Shown here: in pieces, positions 2,518 to 20,764 of the stretch
Layout of the letters: every line of letters begins with the position of its first letter
How positions within the stretch are numbered: position 1 is the stretch's first letter
Assembly (NCBI GenBank): GCA_016197005.1
Contig: JACPWO010000001.1
Span: 346,544 to 410,543 of the forward strand
Source: Candidatus Anderseniibacteriota bacterium
Lineage (GTDB): Bacteria > Patescibacteriota > Andersenbacteria > UBA10190
Reading direction: 5' to 3'
DNA length: 64,000 nt
Made by a program: the position numbers and the translations under genes
Notes under the pieces: generated by a model
The model's database searches: none
What the model saw: the letters and a program-made list of their open reading frames with translations, nothing else
Told to the model about the DNA's origin: nothing

Positions 2518-3330
2518 ATGATCATTGACGCTCACACCCATATCGGCGCCATGGGTAAAGATGACCGCAATGTGACGGTGGCCGATTTACTGCAATCAAT
2601 GGATGAGGCAGGAATTGACATGTCGTTGATTCTCGCGAATGACATTGCCGTGTCGGATGATTGGCGTGGTATGTCAGCTGATGACATTCTGACTCAATGT
2701 GCAGGGAACGATCGAATAAAAGTGATTGGTAATATTACTATTAGTCGAGATATCAATGATCAGCTTCTACGACTCAGAGAACATGTGGAAGCTGGGGTTG
2801 TTGTTGGTATTAAACTGTACCCTGGCTATGAAAACTTTTATCCGTCAGACGAGCGACTGAAGCCAGTGTATGAGTTTTGCCAAAAATTTAATATTCCGGT
2901 CGTGCTGCACACAGGGTTTCTTCTGCAAGGATCTCCCGGTATTCAGGAGCAAGCCCATCCTAACAGTATTGATAAGATCGTTAATCTTTTCCCCGAGCTT
3001 ATTTTCATAATGGCTCATTTTGGCAATCCATGGACAGCTGAAGCAGCCAGGGTTATAGCCCAGCATCAAAACATTTACGCTGATCTTTCTGGTTTTTTTA
3101 CGGAATACGATGAACATATCTCTCTAGAAGAAAAGGCTGATTTTTACCAGAAAATGAAAGAATTTATTAGTATTACTGGCAATCTAAAGAAATGCCTCTT
3201 TGGTACTGATTGGCCACTCTACAGTCAGAAAGAATATCTGGCAGCAGTACAAGAACTGCCTATGAAAGATGAGGAGCGTGATCTCTTTTTTTGGAAAAAT
3301 TCGAGCAGGATATTTGGTCTGGCAGCATAA
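2518..3330 (+). CDS. Amidohydrolase-family metal-dependent hydrolase (TIM barrel)
   Basis: N-terminal IIDAHTHIG metal-binding motif typical of amidohydrolase_2 / TatD-like folds. Internal His/Asp residues are at expected positions. Confidence 0.6.
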   Translation: MIIDAHTHIGAMGKDDRNVTVADLLQSMDEAGIDMSLILANDIAVSDDWRGMSADDILTQCAGNDRIKVIGNITISRDINDQLLRLREHVEAGVVVGIKLYPGYENFYPSDERLKPVYEFCQKFNIPVVLHTGFLLQGSPGIQEQAHPNSIDKIVNLFPELIFIMAHFGNPWTAEAARVIAQHQNIYADLSGFFTEYDEHISLEEKADFYQKMKEFISITGNLKKCLFGTDWPLYSQKEYLAAVQELPMKDEERDLFFWKNSSRIFGLAA

Positions 3331-3352: not shown

Positions 3353-4294
3353 TTATCTGCTAAGCGGTGTCACCGTATACTTCTTTAAAATCTGACAAGG
3401 ATAATAGCCTTTTTTAGCTTCCCTTAATCCAGGCAGTCCAGCATCCTGTTCGAGATTTAAGTATTGACACCCGCGCGTTGCCAGCGCTCGGGCCGTCTCC
3501 TGCCTCAAATAAGGATAGACTCCTGTAAATGAAATTGCATCGGCTTTTTCAAAATGCAAAAGAGCATAAGACTTTCCAACTACTTCGCTGATAGAAAATC
3601 CAATTAGCTGTTTATTAACGAATATCCCAATAGTAATAAGTTGAAATGACTTAGCATGTTTCAGAAGGCGATGAAATGGAAGAAACTCATCCGTCTCCTG
3701 CGTGTTAAACCCTTTTTGTTTTGCCCAGAATGAAAATAGTTCTTGAATCATCGTCTGAACATCAGGATCATTTAAATCACACTCATTCGTCGTTGACCGA
3801 TATAGCTTGCGGAAACGGTTTACGAAATTTCGCTTTCCGCGTAGGGCATGACTTCTGTATGTCATGAGTTCAGGGATAGACAGAATATAATCAAAATTGT
3901 TTGGGTCCTCCTTAATGGTAAACTGATCCGCTCTGATTCCATTGATGCATTCCTCAGGCACAAGACGTAATTTCTTCTTCAAACCTTTGTTGTCAACAAA
4001 AGCAAATAGCTGGTTCAGAGCTTCTTGGGATAGATGACGGCTTAAGAATGAATAAAATGGCTTTCCGGTAAAGTAGTCAGTAAATCGTACTATGAGGTTT
4101 TCTTCAAGCTGGGATAACTGTATTTCATCCTTTACGTTCCAAATCCATAAACTAGTAAAGTTGTAGTCTGAATAAGGCAAAAAAGATTGCGTAAAGGATT
4201 CAATCGCAAGGTGGTCAGCGAGCTGTAATTTCTTGAAATTAGGGAATTGAGGAATCACGTTCGTCATACTATTGCAGTAATCCTTGTTTTTCAA
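3353..4294 (-). CDS. Conserved hypothetical, DUF2156-like (MprF C-domain / VlmA-like aminoacyl-tRNA-dependent transferase fold); paralog of 16605..17534
   Basis: N-terminal pattern FPNFKKLQLADHLAIESF...YSDYNFTSLWIWN resembles the start of DUF2156 / LPG_synthase_C proteins of about 300 aa. There is a clear paralog elsewhere in the window. Family assignment is from memory, not a search. Confidence 0.45.
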   Translation of the reverse strand: MKNKDYCNSMTNVIPQFPNFKKLQLADHLAIESFTQSFLPYSDYNFTSLWIWNVKDEIQLSQLEENLIVRFTDYFTGKPFYSFLSRHLSQEALNQLFAFVDNKGLKKKLRLVPEECINGIRADQFTIKEDPNNFDYILSIPELMTYRSHALRGKRNFVNRFRKLYRSTTNECDLNDPDVQTMIQELFSFWAKQKGFNTQETDEFLPFHRLLKHAKSFQLITIGIFVNKQLIGFSISEVVGKSYALLHFEKADAISFTGVYPYLRQETARALATRGCQYLNLEQDAGLPGLREAKKGYYPCQILKKYTVTPLSR

Positions 4295-4349: not shown

Positions 4350-5426
4350 ATGAACCATACCCCTACAACTGTGAATTCTTACAATGAATGGGATCCTCTG
4401 GAGGAGGTCATTGTTGGCGTTGTTGAGGGCTCAACCATTCCCCAGTGGCATGTGACGCTTGAGGCAACAATGCCAAAAAAATATTGGAGCCTATTTCGTC
4501 AAAAAGGCGGAAAATTGTTTCCAGAGGGTCAAATAACTGCGGCAAAAAAAGAACTTGATGAATTTTGTCGTTTATTGGAATCAGAAGGAGTTACTGTCCG
4601 TCGTCCTGATACAATTCCTTTCAATAAACCTTACTCCTCTCCAGAATGGACTTCTCACGGCGGATTATATGCTGCAATGCCGAGAGACATATTACTAGTC
4701 ATAGGAAACGAAATAATTGAATCGCCTATGGCTTGGCGATCCAGATATTTTGAGATTGAAGCCTATCGTTCACTTTTGAAGGATTACTTTGCAAAAGGAG
4801 CAAAGTGGAGTTCAGCACCCAAACCATTGCTGGGTGGTAAACTTTATAATGATGCCTATGGTAAAAACCAAACTCAGGACAAATTAGAATACGCAATCAC
4901 TGAACATGAACCTGTCTTTGATGCCGCAGATTTCATACGCTGCGGCAGAGATATTTTCGTACAGCAAAGCAACGTCACTAACCAATTAGGAATTGAGTGG
5001 TTGCAAAGACACTTGGGTAGTACTTACAGGATTCATACGCTTAAGTTTGAAGATAAACACCCAATGCATATCGATGCAACTTTTATGCCGCTAGCCCCAG
5101 GAAAGCTCCTCATTAATCCTGAGAGAGTCGGGCAGATTCCTTCAATGTTTAAGGGCTGGGATATTTTGACTGCACCGCGACCATCTATTCCAGGTGAACA
5201 CCCTCTTTATTTTACGAGCAAATGGGTAAGCATCAATGTCCTGATGCTCGATGAAGAAAGAGTGATTGTGGAGAAAAATGAATTACCGTTAATACATTCC
5301 TTCAAAAGCTGGGGTTTTAAAGTAATCCCTTGTAGTTTCCGTAATTTCAATACTTTTGGTGGTTCATTTCATTGCGCCACAGTGGACATTCGGAGAAGAG
5401 GTACGCTCCAATCATATTTTGACTAA
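4350..5426 (+). CDS. Amidinotransferase (AGAT / StrB1 family)
   Basis: N-terminal NEWDPLEEVIVG, catalytic-His region PMHIDATFMPL and C-terminal catalytic Cys in GGSFHCATVD. Length 358 aa is typical for the family. Confidence 0.75.
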   Translation: MNHTPTTVNSYNEWDPLEEVIVGVVEGSTIPQWHVTLEATMPKKYWSLFRQKGGKLFPEGQITAAKKELDEFCRLLESEGVTVRRPDTIPFNKPYSSPEWTSHGGLYAAMPRDILLVIGNEIIESPMAWRSRYFEIEAYRSLLKDYFAKGAKWSSAPKPLLGGKLYNDAYGKNQTQDKLEYAITEHEPVFDAADFIRCGRDIFVQQSNVTNQLGIEWLQRHLGSTYRIHTLKFEDKHPMHIDATFMPLAPGKLLINPERVGQIPSMFKGWDILTAPRPSIPGEHPLYFTSKWVSINVLMLDEERVIVEKNELPLIHSFKSWGFKVIPCSFRNFNTFGGSFHCATVDIRRRGTLQSYFD

Positions 5427-5451: not shown

Positions 5452-6657
5452 TCAAATTTTTTCAATTGCTTTCTCGAGCAAATCAATATCTCTTGTAACG
5501 CAGACCCGAGTCCATGATCCTTCATCCATAGGATTAAGCATAAATGCCTCACCGGGATAGGTGGCCAAGCCTTTACTCATAAATTCTCTTACAAAATCTG
5601 GTGCGGGAAGATCTTTATAGTAGCGAAAGAAAATACTATTTCCCCCATCGGGAGGGATTACGTCTTTTACTTTCGGATGGTTTTTTAGCTTGGCAACTAT
5701 ACGTTTGTTGTACTGTTCTTGAAGATTCATATTATTTGAAATTGTATCTGTATAATTTGTAATTTCTGGCTCTGAAAAATATTTAAGATCAGGATGTTTG
5801 ACTCCTGAAAGTTCTTTATAACGTAGTGCAATATCAAGAAGAAGGAGATAATCTGAAATAATCCCGTTCGAAATATTTCTGACCATTTGAATTTTTTCAA
5901 TACCGGGCAGTAGTCTCTTATCACCCACACAGTAACCACAACGAATTCCAGTCATTCCCGGCCGATCTTTAGACGGACCAAAAAACTTAACATAATTTTT
6001 ATAGCCACCATTGACCCCAGCAATATGGACGGGCTGTTGATCTCTATATAGAGAGTCAATGTAGATCTCATCAGACAATATAAAGAAATCGTACCGACGC
6101 GATAACTTAACTAAAGCATTAACCCATTCTCGAGAGAACGATTTACCAGTTGGATTATTTGGGTTAGAAAAAAGAACAGCTGCCGTCCTTGTGCTCACAG
6201 TATTCTCTAATTGATCAACTGTTGGTAGAAAATCATTCTCACGCAAGGAACGGATTACAATAGGCATTCCTTTCGCACTCTCAACCACCGAATGAAATAT
6301 TGGATAATCCGGAGAAAATAGTACTACCTCTCGTCTCTTATCATCCAAATCAAACACTGCTTGAAGAACAGGATATATAAGGTTGCTGACTCCGCTTCCA
6401 ATAAAAGAAAATGGCTTATCATTTGTCTTGCGTTGAGCTAGATACCCTTCATACTCAATCACTAGTTTTCTCAGACGTTTAATACCACCAAAGTCAGAAT
6501 AGGTTAGTCTATGGTACTCAAATACCAAGTCAATGGCGCGTTTAAATATTACGGGCATTTTAAATACACGAGTGTCATAGTCCATCCATTCCAGCCGATC
6601 TAGGCTTTCAAATTCAAGAAATTCCTTCTCGTAATCAAACATCCTCTTATAAATCAT
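5452..6657 (-). CDS. PLP-dependent aminotransferase, class I/II
   Basis: NPNNPTG motif and a lysine region SKDRPGMTGIRCGY. Length is about 400 aa. It is the last gene of the minus-strand operon. Confidence 0.7.
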   Translation of the reverse strand: MIYKRMFDYEKEFLEFESLDRLEWMDYDTRVFKMPVIFKRAIDLVFEYHRLTYSDFGGIKRLRKLVIEYEGYLAQRKTNDKPFSFIGSGVSNLIYPVLQAVFDLDDKRREVVLFSPDYPIFHSVVESAKGMPIVIRSLRENDFLPTVDQLENTVSTRTAAVLFSNPNNPTGKSFSREWVNALVKLSRRYDFFILSDEIYIDSLYRDQQPVHIAGVNGGYKNYVKFFGPSKDRPGMTGIRCGYCVGDKRLLPGIEKIQMVRNISNGIISDYLLLLDIALRYKELSGVKHPDLKYFSEPEITNYTDTISNNMNLQEQYNKRIVAKLKNHPKVKDVIPPDGGNSIFFRYYKDLPAPDFVREFMSKGLATYPGEAFMLNPMDEGSWTRVCVTRDIDLLEKAIEKI

Positions 6658-6672: not shown

Positions 6673-7077
6673 TTATGTACTCTTTTCATAAACAAAGCCG
6701 CGGCGAATTATTTTGACCTTAAATTTTTTAAGACCGTACGCTAAAAATTCTCTTTTAAGAGTATCAATCGCAACTTCTGTTTTCTCCCGCGCACTACAGG
6801 TAAAAAGATCAATAGCGATATATTTCTTCTCTGGCCATGTATGAAAGGCAAGGTGAGATTCAGAAAGTAGATAGAAACCTGTCAGTCCAAATTCCTTAAA
6901 TTCATGAAATTCCTTTTTGATTACATTCAATTCTGCATGGTTAACGACATTCTCGATTTTCTTCCCGAATGTTGTTGAATGATGCAATTCTTCTGGATAG
7001 TTCTTCAAAAGAATTTCAATCAGAGCGTGATATCCGCGATTTTGATTATTTTTTCTCTTGGTAAAAATGCCTAACAT
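6673..7077 (-). CDS. speH: S-adenosylmethionine decarboxylase proenzyme, pyruvoyl type (SpeH/class 1B)
   Basis: FGLTGFYLLSESHLAFHTWPE and AIDLFTC match the SpeH ESH-S-HTWPE processing motif. The start was moved to the internal Met (MLGIF...), because the track ORF 6673..7188 would overlap speE by about 100 nt. Confidence 0.8.
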   Translation of the reverse strand: MLGIFTKRKNNQNRGYHALIEILLKNYPEELHHSTTFGKKIENVVNHAELNVIKKEFHEFKEFGLTGFYLLSESHLAFHTWPEKKYIAIDLFTCSAREKTEVAIDTLKREFLAYGLKKFKVKIIRRGFVYEKST

Positions 7078-7084
7078 AGCTGCC

Positions 7085-7972
7085 TTACCCTGAATTACCA
7101 TTGAAAAAGTTTGGGACAGTAAAAATAGAACGTAGGTTCCGTGGAGTAATGTATTTGAGGCTAATTTTGGAATCCATGCGTTTTTCAAATTGATTTTCGG
7201 TCATATCCAAGGGGTTTAAAGCCTGATCGTTAGTGGCAAGTAAGAACCCCCAAGAACATTCAAAGAAAGGTACATAGACTCGATAGGAAAAGACGTTGGC
7301 GAAAATGTTGTGTAGGAGTTTACTCATAGCTAAATGCTTGTGATAGTGTATTTCGGTTAACTCGGAAGAATGCATAGCCAAGATACCATTCGTTTTTAAT
7401 CTTTTCTTAATTAATTCATAAAAATCAGCTTGCTCGCGAGCTTCGGCTGCGCCGAGATTAAAAAAGTTGACGTCAGTAATATCTGAAATTATTACATCGT
7501 ACTGATTAACTGTACTTTTAAGAAAATCGCCCGCGTTTCTAAATTGTAAATTCACTTTCTGATGGTCATACGAATTATGATGCATTTCCTTAAGGTGCTT
7601 TTGAAATAGCTGAACGGCCTGACGATCAACATCAATAGCGTCAATGTTTTTTATATGGTCATATTTTAGTAGCTCTCTCAAAGAAGCACCCTCGCCGGCA
7701 CCTAACACCAGTACACGAAAATTGTGATTGTGCTGGCTACAAACCATCGCGGGATGTACTAGGCATTCATGGTATATCCATTCATCTTTAGTCGCACTTT
7801 GCGGTATGCCGTCAATGAATAGACTCAATCCATAGTCATAGAGGTCATAAATTTCAACCTTTTGAAAAGGTGTTTGTTCTTGAACGATGACTTCTTTAAT
7901 CCGATGACGGATTATTTCGTTTTTACAGTAGGCATCTTCAGCCCATTCTTGTAGTAATAACATCGCTATCAA
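7085..7972 (-). CDS. speE: Polyamine aminopropyltransferase (spermidine synthase family)
   Basis: VLVLGAGEGASLRELLKY, IDAIDVDRQAV and YDVIISDITD (dcSAM and amine binding motifs). It sits directly upstream of speH. Confidence 0.75.
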   Translation of the reverse strand: MIAMLLLQEWAEDAYCKNEIIRHRIKEVIVQEQTPFQKVEIYDLYDYGLSLFIDGIPQSATKDEWIYHECLVHPAMVCSQHNHNFRVLVLGAGEGASLRELLKYDHIKNIDAIDVDRQAVQLFQKHLKEMHHNSYDHQKVNLQFRNAGDFLKSTVNQYDVIISDITDVNFFNLGAAEAREQADFYELIKKRLKTNGILAMHSSELTEIHYHKHLAMSKLLHNIFANVFSYRVYVPFFECSWGFLLATNDQALNPLDMTENQFEKRMDSKISLKYITPRNLRSIFTVPNFFNGNSG

Positions 7973-8916
7973 CTAGGATTAGACCCGGTAATAGGTCGCG
8001 TCTGGAATATGTAGAGGTGCTTACCAAAAAAGGACCATTCAATGTCCTGGGAAGCTTGCATGATCTTTTCAATTTTTGATGCCGTTTTAGCAACAGTCAT
8101 AATCGCTTCTCCCGTGAGCTTTTGATTCTTCTGTTCCTTTCTAATGATATTCTTTTGCAACTTTTCCCCTTTATAACTGTTCAGATTTTTGTTCTGAGAA
8201 CCTACTTCAATATCGAGAATTATTCCCTTTTTCTTATCGATCCAATATCTATCTGGTGTCACATCGCCATGAACCAAAAGTTCACCAAGCCCCCAAATGG
8301 CCTCGATAACGATGAGATTAGAATCGTCACTGCTGGGATCTTTCGTAAAACACACTCCGGATACGTCACTATTGATCATTTGTTGAACAAGCACTGCCAT
8401 GTCATTTGCAAAAGGCAGATTATGTTTATTCGCATACATCAATGCTCGGGATGTGTAGAGAGATGCCCAACATTTTTTAATATGCTGCATCAAACCACCT
8501 GCATTGACAAAGGTGTATGTATCGAATTCTCCGGCCCATGAGTGATTCTCTTGATCCTCACAAGACGCTGAGGATCGTACGGCTACATAGTCAGTATTGA
8601 GCTCTTGAAAGGCTGCACTAATTGCCGATTCAATGTGATGGGGAATTTTAAGTTCTTCCAAAACTTTTCGCAAACTTTGAGACACACTATCCACATTTTT
8701 CATTTTTGAGTCTCGAAGCTCAGTTAAAAGGCTATCTATTTTTTTGTCCAATCCATCTGACGTTCTAATATCACTCAAAACTGAAGCAAGGATAACAAAG
8801 CCCTTAGGAACATTTATATGATTTGTTACTAATGTGCCAAGAGGCAAGGCTTTACCACCCACCTCTTGTACATCGAATTTATGTACTTGAGCTAATGGTA
8901 TGGTTACTTTTGTCAT
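7969..8916 (-). CDS. PEP-utilising enzyme, ATP-binding N-domain only (PPDK_N / PEP synthase-like phosphotransferase)
   Basis: VQEVGGKALPLGTLV...VPKGFVI matches the PPDK_N consensus GGKxxNLxxL...VPxGFxI. There is no swivel His domain in this ORF. It overlaps the upstream gene by 4 nt. Confidence 0.7.
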   Translation of the reverse strand: MTKVTIPLAQVHKFDVQEVGGKALPLGTLVTNHINVPKGFVILASVLSDIRTSDGLDKKIDSLLTELRDSKMKNVDSVSQSLRKVLEELKIPHHIESAISAAFQELNTDYVAVRSSASCEDQENHSWAGEFDTYTFVNAGGLMQHIKKCWASLYTSRALMYANKHNLPFANDMAVLVQQMINSDVSGVCFTKDPSSDDSNLIVIEAIWGLGELLVHGDVTPDRYWIDKKKGIILDIEVGSQNKNLNSYKGEKLQKNIIRKEQKNQKLTGEAIMTVAKTASKIEKIMQASQDIEWSFFGKHLYIFQTRPITGSNPS

Positions 8917-8928
8917 ACAAAGTGCAGT

Positions 8929-10098
8929 TTAGATAATCGAGACTTCTGCATTGGTGGCGTCAACCAATAGCTGCATACCTGTTTTCAAAGTTTTAGTTGC
9001 ATAAGATGTTCCAACAATACAAGGTATCTTCATTTCTCGAGCAATTAAAGCTGCATGAGAAGTAATACCACCTTCATCCGTGACAATGGCTGCCACATCT
9101 TTAAATACTGGAACCAACTCTGGTGATGTCATGGGAGCGACTAATATACCACCCCTTTCAAAGTCCTCTATGAATTGTTCATATTCCTCAGTAGTAACGA
9201 TCGAGGGCAACACTACAGCCTTGCCAGTAACTCTTCCGGGATAAGCGGTTGAGCCCTTAATAGTACGTCCAGTCTGGGTGGGCATAAAAGAGTCTCTAAA
9301 ATCAATAAATTGCTTATCGGTAATCTCAATAAATTCAGTACCATTGACTTTGAGAGCAAACGCTTCCTTGCGTTTGTTGGCATTATTGATATCAGGCTTT
9401 ATGTCCTTCAAGAGCAGATCTTTAAGTTCTCGATAGTTGAGACTCGAAACTTGGGTTACTGCCAAATAAAACCTTCGTGCTGTTTCCTCAAGCAAGGCAT
9501 CAGCATAATGAGTTGTGATTAAACTGTTACGTTTTGCTTCAAATCGCTTTTTTGATATCTCGCGTAGAAACTGGATTATCTGCTTAATCTCCTGCTCAAG
9601 CGCCATACCAACATCAACCCCCGCTAAAAGTTTGGCTTTGAGATATTCTCTTTTTTCCTTGTTCTTCTCCTGCTTTTCTAAGAGTTGGTCTATTTTCCCC
9701 TCTAGTAAGTCAAGATAATGTGGCTCTGTATAACGATAGTAATACAAAAATCGCCTCATTAAATCGAACAATTCTTTATATAAATCAAACAGGGCGCTGT
9801 TACTTGCCTTTCTGAGTACTTGTTTGGAATAGCGTTTTCTTGTCACCTCTGTTTCTTTGGCTATAGCCAAAAGATTTTTCTCAACATCTGCATATTTATC
9901 TTGGACAAATAGAGATTCGCCAAGTTTTTGTATCATAGTGAGTTCTCTAACAGTAGCGTAGGCGCTGAGCTGAGTGTGCTCATACACCAATACCCCCTCT
10001 TTTTGAAAATAGGTTGGCGCAACTACGTTTTCTGTCCACAAATAATCGATATAGCTTTCTCTCCAAAGAAAAACATGCTTTTCTGCCGCCTTTTTCAT
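8929..10098 (-). CDS. PEP-utilising enzyme, substrate-domain plus C-terminal phospho-His swivel domain
   Basis: C-terminal DEGGITSHAALIAREMKIPCIVGT is the PEP-utilizers mobile-domain signature with the phosphoryl-carrier His. The N-terminal 280 aa have no recognisable motif. Confidence 0.7.
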   Translation of the reverse strand: MKKAAEKHVFLWRESYIDYLWTENVVAPTYFQKEGVLVYEHTQLSAYATVRELTMIQKLGESLFVQDKYADVEKNLLAIAKETEVTRKRYSKQVLRKASNSALFDLYKELFDLMRRFLYYYRYTEPHYLDLLEGKIDQLLEKQEKNKEKREYLKAKLLAGVDVGMALEQEIKQIIQFLREISKKRFEAKRNSLITTHYADALLEETARRFYLAVTQVSSLNYRELKDLLLKDIKPDINNANKRKEAFALKVNGTEFIEITDKQFIDFRDSFMPTQTGRTIKGSTAYPGRVTGKAVVLPSIVTTEEYEQFIEDFERGGILVAPMTSPELVPVFKDVAAIVTDEGGITSHAALIAREMKIPCIVGTSYATKTLKTGMQLLVDATNAEVSII

Positions 10099-11204
10099 AT
10101 ATTCTGCGTTCGTATTATAAATTTCAGTTGGTTTGTTCTAACTAAGTTAAATACATCATAGTTAGTCTCAGAAACTTTCTCGATTATTTTTCTGGATTGA
10201 GAAGCTGATATCTGGTCTACGTCAAGATAGATATAAGCAATTCCTTCCTTAACACTAACTTTGATCTTATATTGGGGGACATGTCCCAAGACTTCTTGCA
10301 GAATCTCTTGCATGTTTTTCTGTCTGATCTTCACCCCATCTAGCAGATAATGGGTTTTGCCAACCCGGCCACGTAGTATTAAACGAGGATTCCTTAAACC
10401 ACAAGAGCATTGATCTCGCAAAATTTTGCCAGCATCACCAGTGCAATAGCGAATAATCGGCTGAGCATGACACATTAAGTTAGTCATCACGATCTCGCCA
10501 AATCTACCATCTGGGACAATATTGTCGCTTTTAAGAGATTTAATCTCCAAATAGACTTTATCCTCTCGGTAGTGATAGCCATTATGATTTTTGCACTCTA
10601 CCCCAACTACTCCTTCCGTAAGACCATAAGCATCAAATATCTCTGCATTATAGATTTTCTCCAGCCTCGCTCTTTGTTTTTCATTCATGGGCTCACCTGT
10701 AGTTTCCAGAACCTTAAAGTTCCTTTTAGATAATATGTCCGCATACTCCTCAAGTTTTGAAGGCAACGTAGAGATCACTGTTGGAGCGACAGCATCCAAC
10801 ACTTCGGTAATTGCTTCTTTAGATCTTAAATCAATCGGTATAACAGAATTACCCGCTGCAATGTGACCAAGACACGTAAGCGGCCCAACAGCCCAGAACG
10901 AGTGATCCATGAGCACGGCCACTGTTTCGCCACCAGCAATTCCTTCTACCTCACAAAACCATTGAATATAATCAGCGGTATTTCGAATATCGCTTGAGTT
11001 GGAATAGAGCGCTTTAGGTTTCTTAGTCGTGCCGCTCGTAAAATATACGCGTAAATCACTCTCAAATCTGAAAAGTAACTCATTGATTTTTGCCTCAAGC
11101 GAAGTCTCGTGCATGAATGGTAGTGATTTCAGAAGAGCAGTGAAATTTCTGCCTAGAACCCGCTCTCTTGCCTCATCTTCTATTTTAGTAAAAATCTGAC
11201 TCAT
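10095..11204 (-). CDS. PaaK/CapK-like adenylate-forming ligase (coenzyme F390 synthetase family)
   Basis: YFTSGTTKKPKALY (SGTTGKPK-type AMP-binding loop) and YGLTEG. Length 369 aa fits PaaK-like enzymes. Confidence 0.65.
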   Translation of the reverse strand: MSQIFTKIEDEARERVLGRNFTALLKSLPFMHETSLEAKINELLFRFESDLRVYFTSGTTKKPKALYSNSSDIRNTADYIQWFCEVEGIAGGETVAVLMDHSFWAVGPLTCLGHIAAGNSVIPIDLRSKEAITEVLDAVAPTVISTLPSKLEEYADILSKRNFKVLETTGEPMNEKQRARLEKIYNAEIFDAYGLTEGVVGVECKNHNGYHYREDKVYLEIKSLKSDNIVPDGRFGEIVMTNLMCHAQPIIRYCTGDAGKILRDQCSCGLRNPRLILRGRVGKTHYLLDGVKIRQKNMQEILQEVLGHVPQYKIKVSVKEGIAYIYLDVDQISASQSRKIIEKVSETNYDVFNLVRTNQLKFIIRTQNI

Positions 11205-12523
11205 ACTCTTGAGCTCCTAAATTTTCTTAGATCACGAATTTCAACTTTTCTATTTTGCTGGGAAGTATCTCTATCTATGCTCCGGATAATAACAGCGATA
11301 TGTGCATACTCCTCAAACATTACATCATTAAAATCAAGCGATAATGTTCTAATAGCTTGAGTTACTTTTTGAGTGAGAAACTTTTTCTGCCTCTGTGTTG
11401 ATACATCTTTTGCATTAAAGAAAGCTGTAAATTTTATCAAATCTTTGCCGCCATGATCGTCTTTGATCACTACATCACATTTTTGAACTTTTGGATTGAG
11501 TCCGTCCAAAGCTTGTTCTACTTGATATGAATGGAGATTCACTCCTCCTGATATTTCATAGTAGTCACCATCTCTGCCAGTCCACTGCAGTCTTGGCCAA
11601 TCACTTCCGCACTGACATTTCTGGTAATTGATTTTTCCACGATCTCCAGACTTGTACCGAATAATAGGAATTGCCTCTGAGGTTAGATCGGTTAACAGAA
11701 CAGAACCTTCCGACTCAGTTGGTAAATTATTTTGTGGATCAACCACCTCAACTAGTATTCTGTCAGGATCAAAATGATAGCCACATTGATATTTACACTC
11801 CATTCCCATAAAACATTCACTTGATCCATACGATGCCAGAAGATTAACGCCGTACTTATCTTTGTAGTAACCCCTCAGCTCGTTTGAAACGTGATCTCCT
11901 GAAGTTATGACCTTCTCAATTGGAGAAAGCTTGCCTTCCTCAATCGAGCTTTCGATAAACTTTAGAATACTCGGCGTTGTGGCTATTATATTAATATTCA
12001 TTTGTTTAGCCTGATTCCATATGTGCCGCATGACATACTGGTCATTACTAAGACCAGCAGGAAGAACATTGGATTCCAAAATATGAAAAGCGTGCTGGGC
12101 AGAATGGCCAGCAGCCCACGGACCAAACGGCAATGCAATCCATACGCTGTCAAATTTCGTAATGCCAGCAAGCCGGTAACAATTAGCGCGGTATTCATTT
12201 CGAGCTCGCCATTCCTTTTTTGTTACTGGAATAACCTTTGGTTTTCCGGTAGTGTCGCCGGTCAAAAAATAATAAGCGACGTTACTTCGCTTAATAGCGA
12301 CATTTTTTATTGCGAATAATGACTTATCGGCCGGTTTAAGTTTGAAGAAGTCATCCCAATCAACCGAAGCCTCATTCCATATTCCTTCCCAGATCTGTTG
12401 ATAGTAAATAGATTTTTTGTATGCCTCTTTTGCCAGCGACCATACACTGGCTAAAACCTGATCCTGGTATGTTGTTTTAGGTTCGAGGTCGGCATTTTTG
12501 TTAATTGCTAAAATATTAGCCAT
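11201..12523 (-). CDS. PaaK/CapK-like adenylate-forming ligase, second paralog
   Basis: FLTGDTTGKPKVIPVT and YGSSEC. The start is placed at internal Met MANILAINK. The track ORF extends to 12568, which would leave only 37 bp to the divergent gene. Confidence 0.6.
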   Translation of the reverse strand: MANILAINKNADLEPKTTYQDQVLASVWSLAKEAYKKSIYYQQIWEGIWNEASVDWDDFFKLKPADKSLFAIKNVAIKRSNVAYYFLTGDTTGKPKVIPVTKKEWRARNEYRANCYRLAGITKFDSVWIALPFGPWAAGHSAQHAFHILESNVLPAGLSNDQYVMRHIWNQAKQMNINIIATTPSILKFIESSIEEGKLSPIEKVITSGDHVSNELRGYYKDKYGVNLLASYGSSECFMGMECKYQCGYHFDPDRILVEVVDPQNNLPTESEGSVLLTDLTSEAIPIIRYKSGDRGKINYQKCQCGSDWPRLQWTGRDGDYYEISGGVNLHSYQVEQALDGLNPKVQKCDVVIKDDHGGKDLIKFTAFFNAKDVSTQRQKKFLTQKVTQAIRTLSLDFNDVMFEEYAHIAVIIRSIDRDTSQQNRKVEIRDLRKFRSSRV

Positions 12524-12605
12524 ACGCCTAAAAATTGCATAGAATGCGGAATTTGGCAATATTGGCACACTATAAAAAACCTGATATAGTCCTCAGGATT
12601 ACCAT

Positions 12606-13076
12606 ATGCATATTTATGTCACATCCGGCACGGGCACCGGCCCCACCCCCTTAGCTGCTTTTGATGCGGCCGTGATGGCAGCCAGTGAATCGAATCATAA
12701 TATGATTTATCTTTCTTGCTTTATTCCCCCCGGCAGTGTGATAGTACGCGCTCGAAACCCTCTTCTACTTAAGTCGTGGGGTCAACGAATTTATGTTGTG
12801 ATGTCTCGTCAGGATGCTTCTGAAATAGGACAGGAAGCTTGGACTAGTTTGGGTTGGGTGCAGGATCAGAGCGGGCGAGGTATGTTTGTTGAACATCATG
12901 GAAGAAGCAAGAAGGAAGTTCATAATGATATTCAAGCCACTCTAAATTTTATGGTAAGAAGCCGCAATATGGACTTTGGCCCTATTGAGCACGAACTTAC
13001 GGGCATCAAATGTGAAGGCCAGCCCGTATGCGCCGTAACCATGGCAGTGTATAAAATTGAAAACTGGGAGAGTTAA
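12606..13076 (+). CDS. Pyruvoyl-dependent arginine decarboxylase-like protein (PdaD family)
   Basis: VTSGTGTGPTPLAAFDAAVMAA...NMIYLSCFIPP parallels the PdaD N-terminal consensus (tSGvGeGetpLnAFDaAL...NLvrvSSIiPP). It is 156 aa and transcribed divergently from the operon. Confidence 0.65.
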   Translation: MHIYVTSGTGTGPTPLAAFDAAVMAASESNHNMIYLSCFIPPGSVIVRARNPLLLKSWGQRIYVVMSRQDASEIGQEAWTSLGWVQDQSGRGMFVEHHGRSKKEVHNDIQATLNFMVRSRNMDFGPIEHELTGIKCEGQPVCAVTMAVYKIENWES

Positions 13077-13106: not shown

Positions 13107-13583
13107 TTATTGGGATTCTTTTTCTTGTAAATCTCTAATTTTTCTTTCCGCACCCGCTATATCTATTACTCCCTTAGCAGCCGTGAATACCTCTTCAGGC
13201 GTTGTTTTTGCCTTCACTAAATAATCTGCCGCTTGTAGCTCCCTGGCTCTGTCGTGATCCTGTTTCGTATCAAGATTAGACAAAATAATGACTGGAATAT
13301 CCTTAATATCTGGATCTCCTTTCAGCATGATTAAAAAGTTGAAGCCATAATTCTTATCAGTCTCAGAGACTGGAGTATTAGGTTCTTTGCCTAAAATAAG
13401 ATCGAGTAAGATTACGTCGGGCTTCTTCTCTCGAGCCAAGCGATCACCCTCTACGGTATTGTTCGCGCTGATAAACTCGATCTCTTCATGGGATCGCGCA
13501 GTCATCTCATACAATTTAAGGAGCATTGGATCATCATCGATCATGAGAATCTTATTTTTTACTACATTTTTAGAATCAGTCAT
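13107..13583 (-). CDS. Response regulator, receiver domain only (CheY-like)
   Basis: ILMIDDDPMLL...DVILLDLILG...ILSN has the phospho-acceptor Asp and the acidic pocket. No output domain. Confidence 0.75.
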   Translation of the reverse strand: MTDSKNVVKNKILMIDDDPMLLKLYEMTARSHEEIEFISANNTVEGDRLAREKKPDVILLDLILGKEPNTPVSETDKNYGFNFLIMLKGDPDIKDIPVIILSNLDTKQDHDRARELQAADYLVKAKTTPEEVFTAAKGVIDIAGAERKIRDLQEKESQ

Positions 13584-13600
13584 AAGTGTGATAAAAAATA

Positions 13601-14011
13601 TTAACCCTGAAAATCGTGGCTGCCAAGAAATTGGTGAACATGCTCAACAATTTCTCGGGGTAGATACTTCGCTTTCAAAATATAGTCAGCTGCCCCTAAT
13701 CGTTTTACCTCATCAGCCATGTCTTTTTCCCTTTTATTAGACAGGATAATCACCGGAATATTTGCAGTCGAAGGATCTTCTTTAATTTTCTTTAAAACCT
13801 CTAGTCCGTCTAAATCTAGCGTCCCTTCCAAAATAAGGTCAAGCAAGACCAGATCAGGGAGATCATTCTTGACACTCTCCAATCCCTCCTGCGCTGTAGT
13901 CACTGCCTTAAAGTTTTTATACCCCAATTGTTTAAACTGAAAATCATACATAAAACGATGCTGCTTGTTATCTTCGATCATCAGTATCTTGGCTTCAGTG
14001 GCTTCTGGCAT
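13601..14011 (-). CDS. Response regulator, receiver domain only (CheY-like)
   Basis: ILMIEDNKQHRFMY...DLVLLDLILEG...IILSNK. Second stand-alone REC in tandem. Confidence 0.75.
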   Translation of the reverse strand: MPEATEAKILMIEDNKQHRFMYDFQFKQLGYKNFKAVTTAQEGLESVKNDLPDLVLLDLILEGTLDLDGLEVLKKIKEDPSTANIPVIILSNKREKDMADEVKRLGAADYILKAKYLPREIVEHVHQFLGSHDFQG

Positions 14012-14020
14012 AGGTTATGG

Positions 14021-15427
14021 CTAATGAGGTTGTTGCAAAGGAAGTGTAACCCTGAATGTTGTTCCCTTACCTACTCCTTCGCTTTCCAGCATAACACGCC
14101 CATTGTGCTCTTCGACAATCTTTTTGATAATAAAGAGGCCTAAGCCACTGCCGTCTGTGTGCATTCGTTCTGATTTTTTCCCACGTACAAACTTGCCAAA
14201 TAGCTTGTGGATTTCGGTTGAATCAATACCCATTCCAGTATCGGTAACTGCCACTTCAATTTCATTACTCTTAAGGTTAGCTTTGATGGTCACGCCGCCT
14301 TTCTCAGTATATTTTTCAGCGTTATCGATAATATTCAAAAAAACCTGACGTAAGTATCCCGGATCAGCTTCTAGTTTGGGTAGGGGTTTGCCAGATTTTT
14401 CAAAAACTAATGAGAGGCCTTTTTTATCATAATTCAGCTTAAGGGTCTTAATTGAGTCCTCAATAACATTTTCTAACTGAACAGGCTCCACCTTAAAGTT
14501 AAGGCTGCCACCCTCAAGCTCCATTGCATCTAATAAATCATTAACAATACTGTTGAGTTGGGTAGCTCCGCTAAACATGTTCTGTTGCAACTCCCTTCTC
14601 TCTTCAGTAGGAAGTTTGTCGAATTCTCCCTTAGCCTGCATTTCTAAAAATCCGCGCAAACTGGTCAGTGGCGTTCGCAGCTGATGAGAGGCAATATGCA
14701 AGAATTCTGTCTTAACATCCATGAGCTCCTTAAGGTGTTTATTAGCAGCGCTCAACTGTTTAGTAGTGCGTTGTAAGTCCTCGTAAATCTTCGCCTTGTA
14801 CATGGCTAACGACGTAAGGCTCACGACGCCTTCAATGGACTCATGTTCATATTTACTTAATTCATGAAGATTACGATCAGAGCTAAAGGTGAGCACACCC
14901 AAGGCTTTTTGCTCAAAAAAGAGTGGATAGATCATGGAGCTCTGTACTCTCTCCACCACGCTACTACCATTTACATCTTTAAGACGCTGCAGTAACTCAT
15001 GAGGGAAAACTCCCTCGGTACCTTTCACTAGAACAGGCTCCGTCTGTGTTCCCGTCAAAATATGAACCGAAGCAAGAGAATTGGTTACTGGAGCTTGAAG
15101 CGTACGAGGCGGAAAGTCACTGAGAATAGTAGCTAAGTCAGGCTCTGAAGAAGCGAGAGCTAACCACTGCAGAGCGTTGCCTTTCTCATCAAGAATAGCT
15201 ACTGATACCATTTCGTAACTAAACTCAACGGCGATAGCTAAAACAATCTCTCTGGCCATATTGTCCATACTCAGAGCCGAGAGCGATATTTCATCCAATT
15301 TTCTTAGTAAGGCGAGTGTCTTAATACGCACCGCCAATTCTGCATTGCGCTTGTATAGCTCACGATTAACTTCTTGAACGTCATCTGAGTTACTTCCCGG
15401 ATTTTCTTGATCTTCAGTGGTTGTCAT
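14021..15427 (-). CDS. Sensor histidine kinase, soluble, GAF-like sensory domain plus HisKA plus HATPase_c
   Basis: H-box HIASHQLRTPLTSLRGF and G-boxes DTGMGI...GSGLGLFIIKKIV. No predicted TM helix. The N-terminal coiled segment YKRNAELAVRIKTLALLRKLDE is shared with the 34662..36152 paralog. Confidence 0.8.
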   Translation of the reverse strand: MTTTEDQENPGSNSDDVQEVNRELYKRNAELAVRIKTLALLRKLDEISLSALSMDNMAREIVLAIAVEFSYEMVSVAILDEKGNALQWLALASSEPDLATILSDFPPRTLQAPVTNSLASVHILTGTQTEPVLVKGTEGVFPHELLQRLKDVNGSSVVERVQSSMIYPLFFEQKALGVLTFSSDRNLHELSKYEHESIEGVVSLTSLAMYKAKIYEDLQRTTKQLSAANKHLKELMDVKTEFLHIASHQLRTPLTSLRGFLEMQAKGEFDKLPTEERRELQQNMFSGATQLNSIVNDLLDAMELEGGSLNFKVEPVQLENVIEDSIKTLKLNYDKKGLSLVFEKSGKPLPKLEADPGYLRQVFLNIIDNAEKYTEKGGVTIKANLKSNEIEVAVTDTGMGIDSTEIHKLFGKFVRGKKSERMHTDGSGLGLFIIKKIVEEHNGRVMLESEGVGKGTTFRVTLPLQQPH

Positions 15428-17964: not shown

Positions 17965-18070
17965 GATAAATCTCCTCTGTTGGTGCCAAAGTAAAGGAAC
18001 GAACTGACTGCGTATAATACAGCAATATCATTTCCGTGTCAAATTTTGCTGGAAATTCTATCTGAAAAAA

Positions 18071-18430: not shown

Positions 18431-18479
18431 GTTTCTATTATACTAAAAGACTGGTTTAAAAACACGAGCAGTGAGCTTT

Positions 18480-18698: not shown

Positions 18699-18716
18699 GC
18701 CCTAAATGCTGGCCGG

Positions 18717-18737
18717 CTGTAGTCAATAGTTCTACAG
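18717..18737. promoter_or_regulatory. Palindromic candidate operator CTGTAG-N9-CTACAG in the divergent promoter region
   Basis: ggCTGTAGtcaatagttCTACAGtcaataac has inverted hexamers with an internal TCAATA direct repeat. It lies between the start of the minus-strand XRE gene (18698) and the plus-strand gene at 18820. Confidence 0.3.
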
Positions 18738-20752: not shown

Positions 20753-20764
20753 AATTACAAACCT

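What the first reader, a model, noticed from the sequence alone, without database searches (positions are those of the whole stretch)
7969..10098. PEP-utilising phosphotransferase split into two ORFs with permuted domain order
Gene A (8929..10098) ends with the phospho-His swivel motif GGITSHAALIAREMKIPCIVGT. Gene B (7969..8916), starting 13 nt downstream, carries only the PPDK_N ATP-binding domain (GGKALPLG...VPKGFVI). In PEP synthase, PPDK and rifampin phosphotransferase the order in one polypeptide is ATP-grasp, then substrate domain, then His (RPH) or ATP-grasp, then His, then TIM barrel (PEPS). Here the substrate-plus-His protein comes first and the ATP-grasp second, as separate proteins. 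This suggests a two-subunit kinase phosphorylating an unknown small molecule via AMP+Pi chemistry inside the putative biosynthetic operon.
Basis: partly seen in the sequence, partly recalled or inferred. Interest (0 to 1): 0.6.

Follow-up and report, generated by a model that had tools for sequence, protein, structure and literature searches.

The report
Two-protein small-molecule dikinase in CPR bacterium
The two adjacent genes are real and encode the two halves of an ATP-driven kinase that passes phosphate through a swinging histidine domain, a split layout already known from bacterial phenol-degrading kinases; this copy is a small, rare branch from ultra-small (CPR) bacteria whose substrate is unknown.

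Summary
On the minus strand, gene A (10098..8929, 389 aa) is a helical domain plus a C-terminal phosphohistidine swivel domain (His348). Gene B (8916..7969, 315 aa), 12 nt downstream, is a complete stand-alone ATP-grasp domain.

The split is not an artefact. Six independent metagenome contigs (33-79% identity) keep the A-then-B pair with spacers of 1-82 nt, in differing frames.

The layout is not new. The substrate-plus-His protein followed by a separate ATP-grasp protein defines the two-component small-molecule dikinases (PpsAB, CreHI, HpeHI; JBC 2025), which are split homologues of rifampin phosphotransferase.

What is new is the branch:
- The substrate domain is about 280 aa, against roughly 470 aligned residues in HpeH.
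- It has only 35 sequence clusters among 1.84 billion representatives, all from proteins of similar size.
- It lies in a conserved module of aminotransferase, two PaaK-like ligases, A and B, found in Andersenbacteria and Paceibacteria.
- In this window the module also carries polyamine genes.

The substrate is unknown. Verdict: new member of a known kind, modest interest.

The parts
8929..10098 (-). Gene A: His component (389 aa), made of an N-terminal putative substrate-binding domain plus a C-terminal phosphohistidine swivel domain
   Evidence: ORF. Pfam PEP-utilizers at residues 313-383, E=1.9e-25. NCBIfam RPH/PigC/RedH models align to residues ~136-388. AF2 model pLDDT 92.5. Best Foldseek PDB hits are RPH 5fbu/5fbs/5fbt.
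9262..10098 (-). A residues 1-279: mostly helical domain with a small beta-sheet; inferred binding site for the second substrate
   Evidence: Secondary structure. phmmer of residues 1-280 found only 35 clusters in 1.84 billion representatives, the near-full-length ones 380-499 aa, mostly about 380-430. Family-wide conserved residues are Y121 (32/32), E205, R209, E224, R243 (30-31/32), Q216 and R185.
8932..9261 (-). A residues 280-389: swivel phosphohistidine domain
   Evidence: Aligns to PEP synthase 8a8e residues 381-478, E=1e-21. The A1 profile aligns to RPH residues 700-866.
9055..9057 (-). Codon of His348, the predicted phospho-carrier histidine in the motif T340-D-E-G-G-I-T-S-H348
   Evidence: Translation. 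H348 is invariant in 20 and in 32 family members. The motif fits the T/SxxGGxxxH signature described for HpeH, RPH and PEP synthase (PMC12167813).
8917..8928 (-). 12-nt spacer between A's stop codon (TAA) and B's ATG; A and B are in the same frame here
   Evidence: Sequence. Orthologue spacers are 13, 1, 3, 3, 12 and 82 nt, so the frame relation is not conserved.
7969..8916 (-). Gene B: stand-alone ATP-grasp (nucleotide-binding) component, 315 aa
   Evidence: Pfam PPDK_N E=2.1e-77. phmmer to RPH ATP-grasp 5hv6 E=1.8e-43 and to HpeI 9goj E=6.7e-35. AF2 model pLDDT 92.2. Foldseek TM-score 0.90 to RPH 5hv1 and E=1.7e-24 to HpeI. K22, R114 and E293 are invariant in 25 homologues.
8851..8853 (-). 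Codon of Lys22 of B, equivalent to RPH/PPDK Lys22, which contacts the ATP phosphates
   Evidence: Translation. Alignment to RPH. The RPH Lys22Ala variant is inactive (PMC4844700).
10095..11204 (-). ANL2: PaaK-like adenylate-forming ligase (369 aa); its stop overlaps A's start by 4 nt; conserved partner
   Evidence: Pfam AMP-binding. NCBIfam DVU_1553-family and PaaK models. PDB PaaK 4r1l E=1.8e-22. Present directly upstream of A in L001, L002, L003, L005, L087 and L094 at 41-87% identity.
11201..12568 (-). ANL1: PaaK-like adenylate-forming ligase (455 aa), first gene of the operon
   Evidence: Conserved at 33-79% identity in the same loci.
7085..7972 (-). SpeE-like aminopropyltransferase (295 aa); overlaps B's end by 4 nt
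   Evidence: Pfam Spermine_synth E=3.1e-32. Present only in L001, L002 and L087.
6673..7077 (-). Pyruvoyl-type S-adenosylmethionine decarboxylase (probable 134-aa form; the longest ORF runs to 7188)
   Evidence: Pfam AdoMet_dc E=2.9e-23. Orthologues are 134 aa. Translation.
5452..6657 (-). Class I/II PLP aminotransferase (401 aa), last gene of the operon and a conserved partner of A/B
   Evidence: Pfam Aminotran_1_2 E=1.4e-29. Present in every full orthologous locus at 44-80% identity.
2518..3330 (+). Amidohydro_2 protein (270 aa), a possible accessory member of the system
   Evidence: Pfam E=2e-34. It is 43% identical to the gene lying between B and the aminotransferase in L094.
4350..5426 (+). 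AGAT/HsvA-like amidinotransferase (358 aa), convergent with the operon; accessory gene in Andersenbacteria-type loci
   Evidence: PDB human AGAT E=3e-131, SxtG 5.7e-124, HsvA 1.9e-122. Syntenic in L087 at 79% identity.
12606..13076 (+). Pyruvoyl-dependent arginine decarboxylase (156 aa), divergent from the operon
   Evidence: Pfam PvlArgDC E=8.3e-21. Syntenic in L001 and L087.

Best explanation
A and B are the two components of an RPH-type small-molecule dikinase with the same architecture as PpsAB, CreHI and HpeHI.

Proposed mechanism:
1. B, a free-standing ATP-grasp protein, binds MgATP.
2. The C-terminal swivel domain of A docks transiently on B. His348 attacks the beta-phosphate, releasing AMP.
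3. The gamma-phosphate is hydrolysed to Pi, leaving phospho-His348.
4. The swivel domain returns to A's own ~280-residue helical domain and transfers the phosphate to an oxygen nucleophile of a small molecule bound there.

The pair is co-transcribed and probably translationally coupled with two PaaK-like adenylating ligases and a PLP aminotransferase. In this genome the operon also holds SpeE and AdoMetDC. The substrate is therefore most likely an intermediate of that conserved module, probably derived from an aryl acid, a keto acid or an amino acid.

Shown here: domain content, conserved catalytic residues, fold similarity, conserved gene pairing and operon context. Inferred: the chemistry, the A:B interaction and the substrate class.
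For: Domains:
- A has a PEP-utilizers domain (1.9e-25) and B a PPDK_N domain (2.1e-77).
- Together they cover the RPH, PigC and RedH NCBIfam models without overlap: B aligns to model positions ~5-312 and A to ~627-880.

Folds:
- The A model (pLDDT 92.5) best matches RPH, the only PDB protein aligned well beyond the swivel.
- The B model (pLDDT 92.2) has TM-score 0.90 to the RPH ATP-grasp and matches HpeI 9GOJ at E=1.7e-24.

Catalytic residues:
- His348 sits in the T-x-x-G-G-x-x-x-H motif and is invariant in 32 family members.
- B residues K22, R114, T133 and E293 align with RPH Lys22, Arg117, Thr136 and Glu297.

Gene pairing:
- The A-then-B pair is kept in L001, L002, L003/L004, L005, L087 and L094.
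- A and B diverge in parallel: A 79/73/53/36/35/33% and B 81/74/50/37/37/37% identity.

Precedent: HpeHI, PpsAB and CreHI are experimentally proven two-component dikinases with the His component encoded first. In that work His-to-Gln abolishes activity, AMP is the product, and the His component alone catalyses phosphate exchange (PMC12167813; PMC7500099).

Free-standing ATP-grasp proteins are common. All 120 best homologues of B are 309-350 aa PPDK_N-only proteins, and the few that carry an organism name are from Patescibacteria or DPANN.
Against: - No biochemical data exist for this clade.
- A's N-terminal domain shows no sequence-level similarity to the substrate domain of a PpsA/HpeH-type protein. 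hhalign against a 632-aa haloarchaeal homologue aligns only the swivel.
- The domain is about 280 aa, against about 430 aa for the RPH rifampin-binding domain. It could serve a role other than substrate binding, such as docking or regulation.
- The Foldseek global TM-score to RPH is only 0.50.
- Equivalents of the RPH Arg666/Glu667 catalytic dyad were not located by explicit alignment.
- The genomic context is unlike that of any characterised two-component dikinase. There is no carboxylase or phosphatase, and no evidence of phenol catabolism.
Confidence: 0.8

Rival explanations
1. A PigC/RedH-like condensing enzyme in two pieces. The first half-reaction is the same (ATP, phospho-His348). The phosphate is then placed on a carbonyl or enol oxygen only to make it a leaving group. 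The real product would be a C-N or C-C bond, for example coupling of an aldehyde or keto intermediate to an amine such as a polyamine. It would not be a stable phosphate ester.
For: A aligns to the undecylprodigiosin ligase RedH model (1.3e-19, residues 136-388) and the prodigiosin ligase PigC model (3.2e-17) at least as well as to the RPH model (4.6e-17). B aligns to PigC at 3e-62. The operon supplies amines (SpeE, AdoMetDC, arginine decarboxylase, amidinotransferase) and an aminotransferase.
Against: All scores lie far below the family cut-offs (about 62-70 bits against 1300-1350), so there is no specific affiliation. The polyamine genes are absent from the more distant orthologous loci L003, L005 and L094. 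No pyrrole or aldehyde-forming genes are nearby.
Confidence: 0.15
2. A xenobiotic or antibiotic-inactivating kinase like RPH, or a scavenging 'trap' kinase for a diffusible host metabolite, that is only incidentally linked to the neighbouring genes.
For: RPH is the closest solved structure for both A and B. [quoted passage not shown] CPR and DPANN genomes carry arrays of diversified His components.
Against: The linkage to two ligases and an aminotransferase is conserved from 79% down to 33% identity, with overlapping or abutting genes. That argues for a shared pathway rather than a stand-alone resistance gene.
Confidence: 0.07
3. A split PEP synthase or PPDK of central carbon metabolism that interconverts pyruvate and PEP.
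For: The best single HMM hits for both proteins are PEP synthase models. The swivel motif GGITSHAA, with Thr at position His-2, matches the PEP synthase consensus. Source databases label orthologues 'phosphoenolpyruvate synthase/pyruvate phosphate dikinase'.
Against: No PEP/pyruvate-binding TIM-barrel domain is found in A, B or the neighbouring genes. PEP synthase similarity in A is confined to residues ~278-386. A's N-terminal domain is instead RPH-like.
Confidence: 0.02
4. An artefact or pseudogene: a single gene broken by a sequencing error, a misassembly or decay.
For: In this window A and B are in the same frame, separated only by TAA and 4 codons.
Against: Fusing them would give a circularly permuted order, not the canonical one. 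Six independent contigs from different samples keep two ORFs, with spacers of 13, 1, 3, 3, 12 and 82 nt, several of them out of frame. Both proteins are full-length, confidently folded domains.
Confidence: 0.01

Closest known systems
HpeHI of Rhodococcus rhodochrous GD02, with CreHI of Corynebacterium glutamicum and AcvAB of Sphingobium: two-component small-molecule dikinases (PMC12167813)
   Same: Two polypeptides. The His component (substrate-binding plus swivel domain) is encoded first and the ATP-grasp component second. The T/SxxGGxxxH motif is present. Both are RPH-like folds. B matches the HpeI crystal structure 9GOJ by sequence (E=6.7e-35) and by fold (E=1.7e-24).
   Different: HpeH is 71 kDa and A is about 45 kDa, with a substrate domain of ~280 aa against ~470 aligned residues. 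No sequence similarity outside the swivel was found to a PpsA/HpeH-type protein. His-2 is Thr in A and Met in HpeH, CreH and PpsA. The known enzymes act on phenolics in catabolic clusters, whereas this pair sits with PaaK-like ligases, an aminotransferase and polyamine genes in CPR bacteria.
Phenylphosphate synthase PpsAB(C) of Thauera aromatica, and phenylphosphoamidate synthase Pas-alpha/beta of Desulfatiglans anilini (PMC7500099)
   Same: A split dikinase. The alpha subunit carries the phospho-His and binds the acceptor, and the beta subunit is the ATP-binding N-terminal part of a PEP-synthase-like protein. In Thauera aromatica alpha is encoded immediately before beta (consecutive locus tags). 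Products are AMP + Pi.
   Different: The alpha subunit is about 70 kDa. A stimulating gamma subunit exists in Thauera. The enzyme is followed by a phenylphosphate carboxylase in anaerobic phenol or aniline degradation. None of this context is present here.
Rifampin phosphotransferase RPH (PDB 5HV1, 5FBS; PMC4844700)
   Same: It is the closest solved structure for both A and B. It has the same three domain types, the same ATP-site residues (Lys22, Arg117, Thr136, Glu297 corresponding to B K22, R114, T133, E293), and the catalytic His within 50 residues of the C-terminus.
   Different: RPH is one chain in the order ATP-grasp, rifampin-binding domain, swivel. Here there are two chains with the gene order reversed. 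The substrate domain is about one-third shorter, and there is no link to rifamycin resistance.
PigC / RedH / HapC prodiginine-condensing enzymes
   Same: The same three domain types. NCBIfam models align to B and to A residues ~136-388 about as well as the RPH model does. They work in biosynthesis rather than catabolism.
   Different: They are single 880-aa chains that use phosphorylation to drive a condensation. Scores here are far below the family cut-offs.
PEP synthase / pyruvate phosphate dikinase
   Same: ATP-grasp and swivel domains, with the swivel motif GGxTSHAA including Thr at His-2. These give the best raw HMM scores for both proteins.
   Different: No PEP/pyruvate TIM-barrel domain. 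In PEP synthase the His domain is central and in one chain, whereas here it is C-terminal on a separate protein.

Membership tests
Two-component small-molecule dikinases (HpeHI/CreHI/PpsAB type) | The ATP-grasp (PPDK_N) domain is a separate polypeptide of ~35-40 kDa | tested here: met
   B is 315 aa and PPDK_N only. The model has TM-score 0.90 to the RPH ATP-grasp and matches HpeI 9GOJ at E=1.7e-24.
Two-component small-molecule dikinases (HpeHI/CreHI/PpsAB type) | The second polypeptide ends in a swivel phosphohistidine domain with the T/SxxGGxxxH motif | tested here: met
   T340-DE-GG-ITS-H348. H348, G343 and G344 are invariant in 32 sequences.
Two-component small-molecule dikinases (HpeHI/CreHI/PpsAB type) | Adjacent genes, with the His component upstream of the ATP-grasp component | tested here: met
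   Window and orthologous loci L001, L002, L003, L004, L005, L087 and L094. A haloarchaeal PpsAB-like pair in L092 has the same order.
Two-component small-molecule dikinases (HpeHI/CreHI/PpsAB type) | A substrate-binding domain homologous to that of HpeH/CreH/PpsA (~45% identity among them; ~470 residues aligned to RPH) | tested here: not met
   hhalign of the A family profile against a 632-aa PpsA/HpeH-type protein (L092) aligns only the swivel, positions 258-390. phmmer of A residues 1-280 finds no 600-aa proteins among 1.84 billion representatives. Caveat: HpeH, CreH and PpsA themselves were not available for comparison.
Two-component small-molecule dikinases (HpeHI/CreHI/PpsAB type) | Dikinase chemistry: both components are required, ATP gives AMP + Pi, and the beta-phosphate passes to the acceptor via phospho-His | not testable with these tools
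   Needs enzymology. Inferred from conserved residues only.
Two-component small-molecule dikinases (HpeHI/CreHI/PpsAB type) | Phenolic substrate and an aromatic-catabolic gene context | tested here: inconclusive
   No carboxylase or phosphatase is nearby. The neighbours are PaaK-like aryl-acid-type ligases, an aminotransferase and an Amidohydro_2 protein. This is compatible with aromatic chemistry but does not show it.
RPH / PRK06241-type single-chain small-molecule dikinases (RPH, PigC, RedH) | One chain in the order ATP-grasp, substrate domain, C-terminal swivel | tested here: not met
   Two ORFs with reversed order, conserved in orthologues.
RPH / PRK06241-type single-chain small-molecule dikinases (RPH, PigC, RedH) | ATP-site residues Lys22, Arg117, Thr136 (and Glu297) of RPH-Lm | tested here: met
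   B residues K22, R114, T133 and E293 align with them (positions). K22, R114 and E293 are invariant in 25 homologues. The roles of these residues are taken from PMC4844700.
RPH / PRK06241-type single-chain small-molecule dikinases (RPH, PigC, RedH) | The substrate-domain fold is shared with the RPH rifampin-binding domain, including the Arg666-Glu667 phosphotransfer dyad | tested here: inconclusive
   RPH is the top Foldseek hit over 414-555 alignment columns, but TM-score is only 0.39-0.50. HMM alignments reach back to A residues 136-212. Conserved R185, E205 and R209 are candidates for the dyad, but no explicit residue mapping was possible.
RPH / PRK06241-type single-chain small-molecule dikinases (RPH, PigC, RedH) | Scores reach the curated family cut-offs (RPH 999, PigC 1300, RedH 1350 bits) | tested here: not met
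   A scores 62-70 bits and B 200-211 bits.
PEP synthase / PPDK | A PEP/pyruvate-binding TIM-barrel domain C-terminal to the swivel | tested here: not met
   A ends 41 residues after His348. No such Pfam domain occurs in A, B or the neighbouring genes.
PEP synthase / PPDK | The GGxT(S/C)HAA motif with Thr at His-2 | tested here: met
   GGITSHAA is present, and T346 is conserved in at least 90% of 20 sequences.

The most novel reading that the evidence does not exclude
The conserved five-gene module (PLP aminotransferase, two PaaK-like ligases, A, B) may be an undescribed pathway specific to CPR/Patescibacteria. In it a minimal two-component dikinase would work in biosynthesis or salvage rather than in phenol catabolism. 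It would phosphorylate, or phospho-activate in the manner of PigC, an intermediate derived from an aryl acid or amino acid. In Andersenbacteria that intermediate would then be joined to an aminopropylated or amidinated polyamine made by the co-located SpeE, AdoMetDC, arginine decarboxylase and AGAT/HsvA-like amidinotransferase, giving a phevamine-like conjugate. This would be the first non-catabolic role for a two-component dikinase, and a rare specialised-metabolite pathway in an ultra-small episymbiont.
Probability: 0.2. Interest if true: 0.6.

Novelty: new member of a known kind. Interest (0 to 1): 0.3.

Why it matters
- Annotation. These genes are currently labelled 'hypothetical protein', 'PEP/pyruvate-binding domain-containing protein' or 'phosphoenolpyruvate synthase'. 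Treating them as PEP synthase would wrongly credit CPR genomes with a gluconeogenic step. They are better described as a two-component small-molecule dikinase.
- Range of the family. This pair extends the recently recognised two-component dikinase family beyond aromatic catabolism in cultured Proteobacteria and Actinobacteria, into Patescibacteria and into a ligase/aminotransferase/polyamine context.
- A tractable target. The ~280-residue acceptor domain would be the smallest in the family, which makes it attractive for structure and specificity work.
- The module itself. It is one of the few multi-gene, apparently non-housekeeping pathways in a reduced CPR genome, so its product may matter for interaction with the host.

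Tried and rejected
- Frameshift or misassembly. Rejected, because six independent orthologous contigs keep two ORFs with different spacers and frames.
- Split PEP synthase. Rejected, because there is no TIM-barrel domain.
- Modelling an A-B pseudo-fusion from window:7969-10098. The tool refuses sequences with an internal stop. Paired orthologue alignments from loci are not admissible, so no model of the complex was obtained.
- The genome-contig scan with the A family alignment was saturated by the swivel motif.
- Looking for HpeH-like sequences among actinobacterial hits and Rhodococcus plasmids. These turned out to be ordinary ~800-aa PEP synthases.
- The promoter and terminator scan was no better than shuffled sequence for promoters. 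It showed no terminator-like site at the A/B junction; one weak minus-strand match lies inside B at 8048-8031.
- Rfam found no riboswitch, only 3 tRNAs.
- PADLOC found no defence-system match.
- Accessory genes of distant loci (aromatic ammonia-lyase, ThiF and methyltransferase in L002; cupin and phosphodiesterase in L003) are not shared with the window. They give no clue to the substrate.
- Literature searches found nothing on this module or on CPR/DPANN His-component arrays.

Full report
**1. Observation**

- A has one Pfam domain, PEP-utilizers, at residues 313-383 (E=1.9e-25).
- B has one Pfam domain, PPDK_N, covering residues 17-312 of a 328-position model (E=2.1e-77).
- The motif GGITSHAALIAREMKIPCIVGT is at A residues 343-364, with His348 at codon 9057..9055.
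- GGKALPLG is at B residues 20-27.
- The junction is TAA, 12 nt, then ATG. A and B are in the same frame here.
- Neither gene has a paralogue elsewhere in the window.

**2. The split is real and conserved**

An exact copy of A is recorded as hypothetical protein HYZ61_01875 of a Candidatus Andersenbacteria MAG, on a contig of 575,969 bp.

Orthologues of A lie on independent metagenome contigs, and each is followed at once by a PPDK_N-only gene:

| Locus | A identity | A-B spacer |
|---|---|---|
| L001 | 79% | 13 nt |
| L087 | 73% | 12 nt |
| L002 | 53% | 1 nt |
| L003/L004 | 36% | 3 nt |
| L005 | 35% | 3 nt |
| L094 | 33% | 82 nt |

- The frames differ between loci, so read-through fusion is not a conserved feature and a sequencing error is excluded.
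- A and B diverge in parallel. B identities in the same order are 81, 74, 50, 37, 37 and 37%, as expected for co-inherited partners.
- Fusing A to B would in any case give a circular permutation, not a canonical gene.

**3. What the two proteins are**

*Gene B*
- Its AF2 model (pLDDT 92.2) superposes on the RPH ATP-grasp with TM-score 0.90 and rmsd 2.4 Å, and matches HpeI at E=1.7e-24.
- RPH residues shown by mutagenesis to position ATP (Lys22, Arg117, Thr136) and the Mg ligand Glu297 (PMC4844700) correspond to B K22, R114, T133 and E293. K22, R114 and E293 are invariant in 25 homologues.

*Gene A*
- Its last ~110 residues are a swivel domain most similar to that of PEP synthase (8a8e, E=1e-21).
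- The motif T340-xx-GG-xxx-H348 fits the T/SxxGGxxxH signature of the family (PMC12167813). H348 is invariant in 32 relatives.
- NCBIfam models of RedH, PigC and RPH align from A residue ~136-147 to 388, against model positions ~627-880.
- A profile of the A family reaches RPH residues 700-866.
- The AF2 model of A (pLDDT 92.5, pTM 0.90) has RPH as its top six Foldseek hits (E 2.6e-11 to 3.2e-9), aligned over 414-555 columns. Most of the remaining significant matches are other swivel-domain proteins.

So A corresponds to a shortened RPH-like acceptor domain plus the swivel, and B to the ATP-grasp. Together they tile the RPH, PigC and RedH models without overlap.

**4. This architecture is already known**

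- Dexter et al. (J Biol Chem 2025, PMC12167813) characterised HpeHI. [quoted passage not shown]
  - HpeH (71 kDa) is the substrate-binding plus swivel component.
  - HpeI (40.6 kDa) is the ATP-grasp component, PDB 9GOJ.
  - CreHI and phenylphosphate synthase PpsAB are homologues.
- The mechanism is established for PpsAB and HpeHI. The ATP-grasp protein presents ATP. The His attacks the beta-phosphate. The gamma-phosphate is hydrolysed. Phospho-His then phosphorylates the acceptor, and AMP is the product. A His-to-Gln change abolishes activity. The His component alone exchanges phosphate between product and substrate.
- Pas-alpha/beta of Desulfatiglans is another example. In Thauera the alpha (His) gene immediately precedes beta (PMC7500099).
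- Annotated genomes show the pattern too. A haloarchaeal plasmid carries a 632-aa 'PEP-utilizing enzyme' followed by a 360-aa 'PEP/pyruvate-binding' protein next to aromatic-catabolic genes (L092). A Bacillus cereus plasmid carries the opposite order inside an NRPS cluster (L091).
- All 120 best homologues of B are stand-alone 309-350 aa proteins. The few that carry an organism name are from Patescibacteria or DPANN.

The 'permuted, split' layout is therefore the norm for a described family, not an anomaly.

**5. What is different here**

- A is much smaller than HpeH, PpsA or CreH (389 aa against ~600-650 aa). Its acceptor domain is about 280 aa.
- That domain is rare. phmmer of residues 1-280 against 1.84 billion representatives found 35 clusters at E<=1e-3. 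The near-full-length hits are 380-499 aa, mostly about 380-430, and none is a protein of 600-870 aa.
- hhalign of the family profile against the PpsA/HpeH-type protein of L092 aligned only the swivel. Against the B. cereus NRPS-linked His component it aligned from residue 146. So the acceptor domain is closer to the RPH/PigC side than to the phenol-kinase side.
- The residue at His-2 is Thr, as in PEP synthase. It is Met in HpeH, CreH, PpsA and RPH.
- Residues conserved across the family in the acceptor domain are Y121 (32/32), E205, R209, E224, R243 (30-31/32), Q216 and R185. They are candidate acceptor or phosphate ligands, but they have not been mapped in 3D.

**6. Context**

A and B lie in a tightly packed minus-strand operon:
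- ANL1 (12568..11201)
- ANL2 (11204..10095; 4-nt overlaps at both ends)
- A
- B
- SpeE-like (7972..7085; 4-nt overlap with B)
- AdoMetDC (7077..6673)
- PLP aminotransferase (6657..5452)

- Both ANL proteins are PaaK-like adenylate-forming enzymes. Their nearest solved relatives are phenylacetate-CoA ligases and the ester/amide-forming AjiA1 and other PaaK-like ligases.
- A presence/absence comparison shows the invariant core is aminotransferase + ANL1 + ANL2 + A + B, present in L001, L002, L003, L005, L087 and L094.
- SpeE and AdoMetDC occur only in the closer loci. The arginine decarboxylase and the amidinotransferase occur only in the Andersenbacteria-type loci.
- L094 has an Amidohydro_2 gene between B and the aminotransferase. 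It is 43% identical to window 2518..3330.
- The AspRS gene next to the L005 module is 84% identical to Paceibacteria/Parcubacteria proteins. The module therefore occurs in at least two CPR lineages.
- No riboswitch, no defence-system match and no informative promoter or terminator signal was found.

**7. Mechanism and its rivals**

*Best explanation (confidence 0.8).* A two-component RPH-type dikinase. B binds MgATP. A-His348 is pyrophosphorylated and then reduced to phospho-His. The swivel returns to A's own domain and phosphorylates an oxygen of a module intermediate, with AMP + Pi as products.

The substrate class is inferred only weakly. PaaK-like ligases, the aminotransferase and Amidohydro_2 would fit intermediates derived from aryl acids, arylpyruvates or amino acids. 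The known two-component dikinases act on phenolic OH groups.

*Rivals.*
- A PigC/RedH-like phospho-activation that drives a condensation, for instance with a polyamine. Homology cannot tell this apart from a simple kinase.
- A stand-alone xenobiotic or scavenging kinase. The conserved operon argues against it.
- A split PEP synthase. There is no TIM barrel.
- An artefact. This is refuted.

**8. Verdict**

The feature belongs to a known kind, the two-component small-molecule dikinases.

The new elements are a rare, minimal clade, its occurrence in Patescibacteria, and a conserved ligase/aminotransferase (plus polyamine) context with an unknown product. Interest is modest (0.3). It would rise if the module proves to make a specialised metabolite.

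A side observation may be of wider interest. CPR/DPANN and some other MAGs carry tandem arrays of up to ten diversified His components with a single ATP-grasp gene, and giant one-ATP-grasp, many-swivel fusions.

Noticed in passing
L021 412-15499; L015; L024; L012; L008; L006 2704-9098; giant ORFs L013 1296-12599, L037 5952-11942, L054 2-6040, L010 3072-7301, L027 5955-9653: In CPR/DPANN and a few other MAGs, stand-alone His components (350-540 aa) occur in tandem arrays of 4-10 genes. L021 has ten in a row followed by a single B-like ATP-grasp gene (317 aa, 41% identity to B). Some genomes fuse one ATP-grasp with 2-8 swivel modules into ORFs of 1233-3768 aa. In L021 the nine complete paralogues share 51% identity in the swivel but only 24% in the N-terminal parts, and seven of the nine keep the H-A-A core after the catalytic His (two have HAS or HVA). 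This suggests one ATP-grasp serving a battery of diversified acceptor modules. Three literature searches found no description of it.
   Followed up: partly
window 4350-5426 (+): A 358-aa amidinotransferase strikingly similar to human L-arginine:glycine amidinotransferase (E=3e-131), SxtG (5.7e-124) and the polyamine amidinotransferase HsvA (1.9e-122). Pfam reports no domain for it. It sits beside SpeE, AdoMetDC and a pyruvoyl arginine decarboxylase and is syntenic in L087 (79% identity). This hints at an amidino-polyamine, as in phevamine biosynthesis.
   Followed up: partly
window 8917-8931: A and B are in the same reading frame, separated only by TAA and four codons. Orthologues have spacers of 1, 3, 12, 13 and 82 nt, so the in-frame relation is not conserved and read-through is unlikely to be functional.
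   Followed up: yes
window 2518-3330 (+); L094 10080-10871: The Amidohydro_2 protein 2 kb from the operon is 43% identical to a gene located inside the orthologous operon of L094, between B and the aminotransferase. That is more conserved than A itself between these loci, so it may belong to the same pathway. Its closest solved structure is an uncharacterised Bordetella protein, 3irs.
   Followed up: partly
L091 4944-7548 (Bacillus cereus SB1 plasmid p1, NZ_CP045607.2): A split dikinase in the opposite gene order (332-aa ATP-grasp, then a 538-aa His component). It sits directly after an NRPS gene and before a thioesterase and a PPTase. It is an annotated but apparently uncharacterised biosynthetic two-component dikinase, and its His component aligns with A from residue 146.
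   Followed up: partly
window 6673-7188 (-): The longest AdoMetDC ORF (171 aa, TTG start) overlaps the SpeE-like gene by 104 nt. Orthologues are 134 aa, which points to the ATG at 7077 as the real start, 7 nt after the SpeE stop codon.
   Followed up: yes
window 3353-4294 (-) and 16605-17534 (-); 13107-15427 (-): Two paralogous stand-alone LPG_synthase_C (aminoacyl-phosphatidylglycerol synthase C-terminal-like, DUF2156) genes and a histidine kinase with two single-domain response regulators flank the cluster. They are syntenic in L001 and L087. It is unknown whether they belong to the same system.
   Followed up: no
window 18001-26000: G+C rises to 0.46-0.51, against about 0.38-0.43 in the dikinase region, with positive AT skew. 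The cause was not examined.
   Followed up: no
window 500-922 and 1244-1666 (-): Two NUDIX hydrolase genes of identical length (140 aa) lie close together next to a metallo-beta-lactamase-fold gene. They are not found in the orthologous loci.
   Followed up: no
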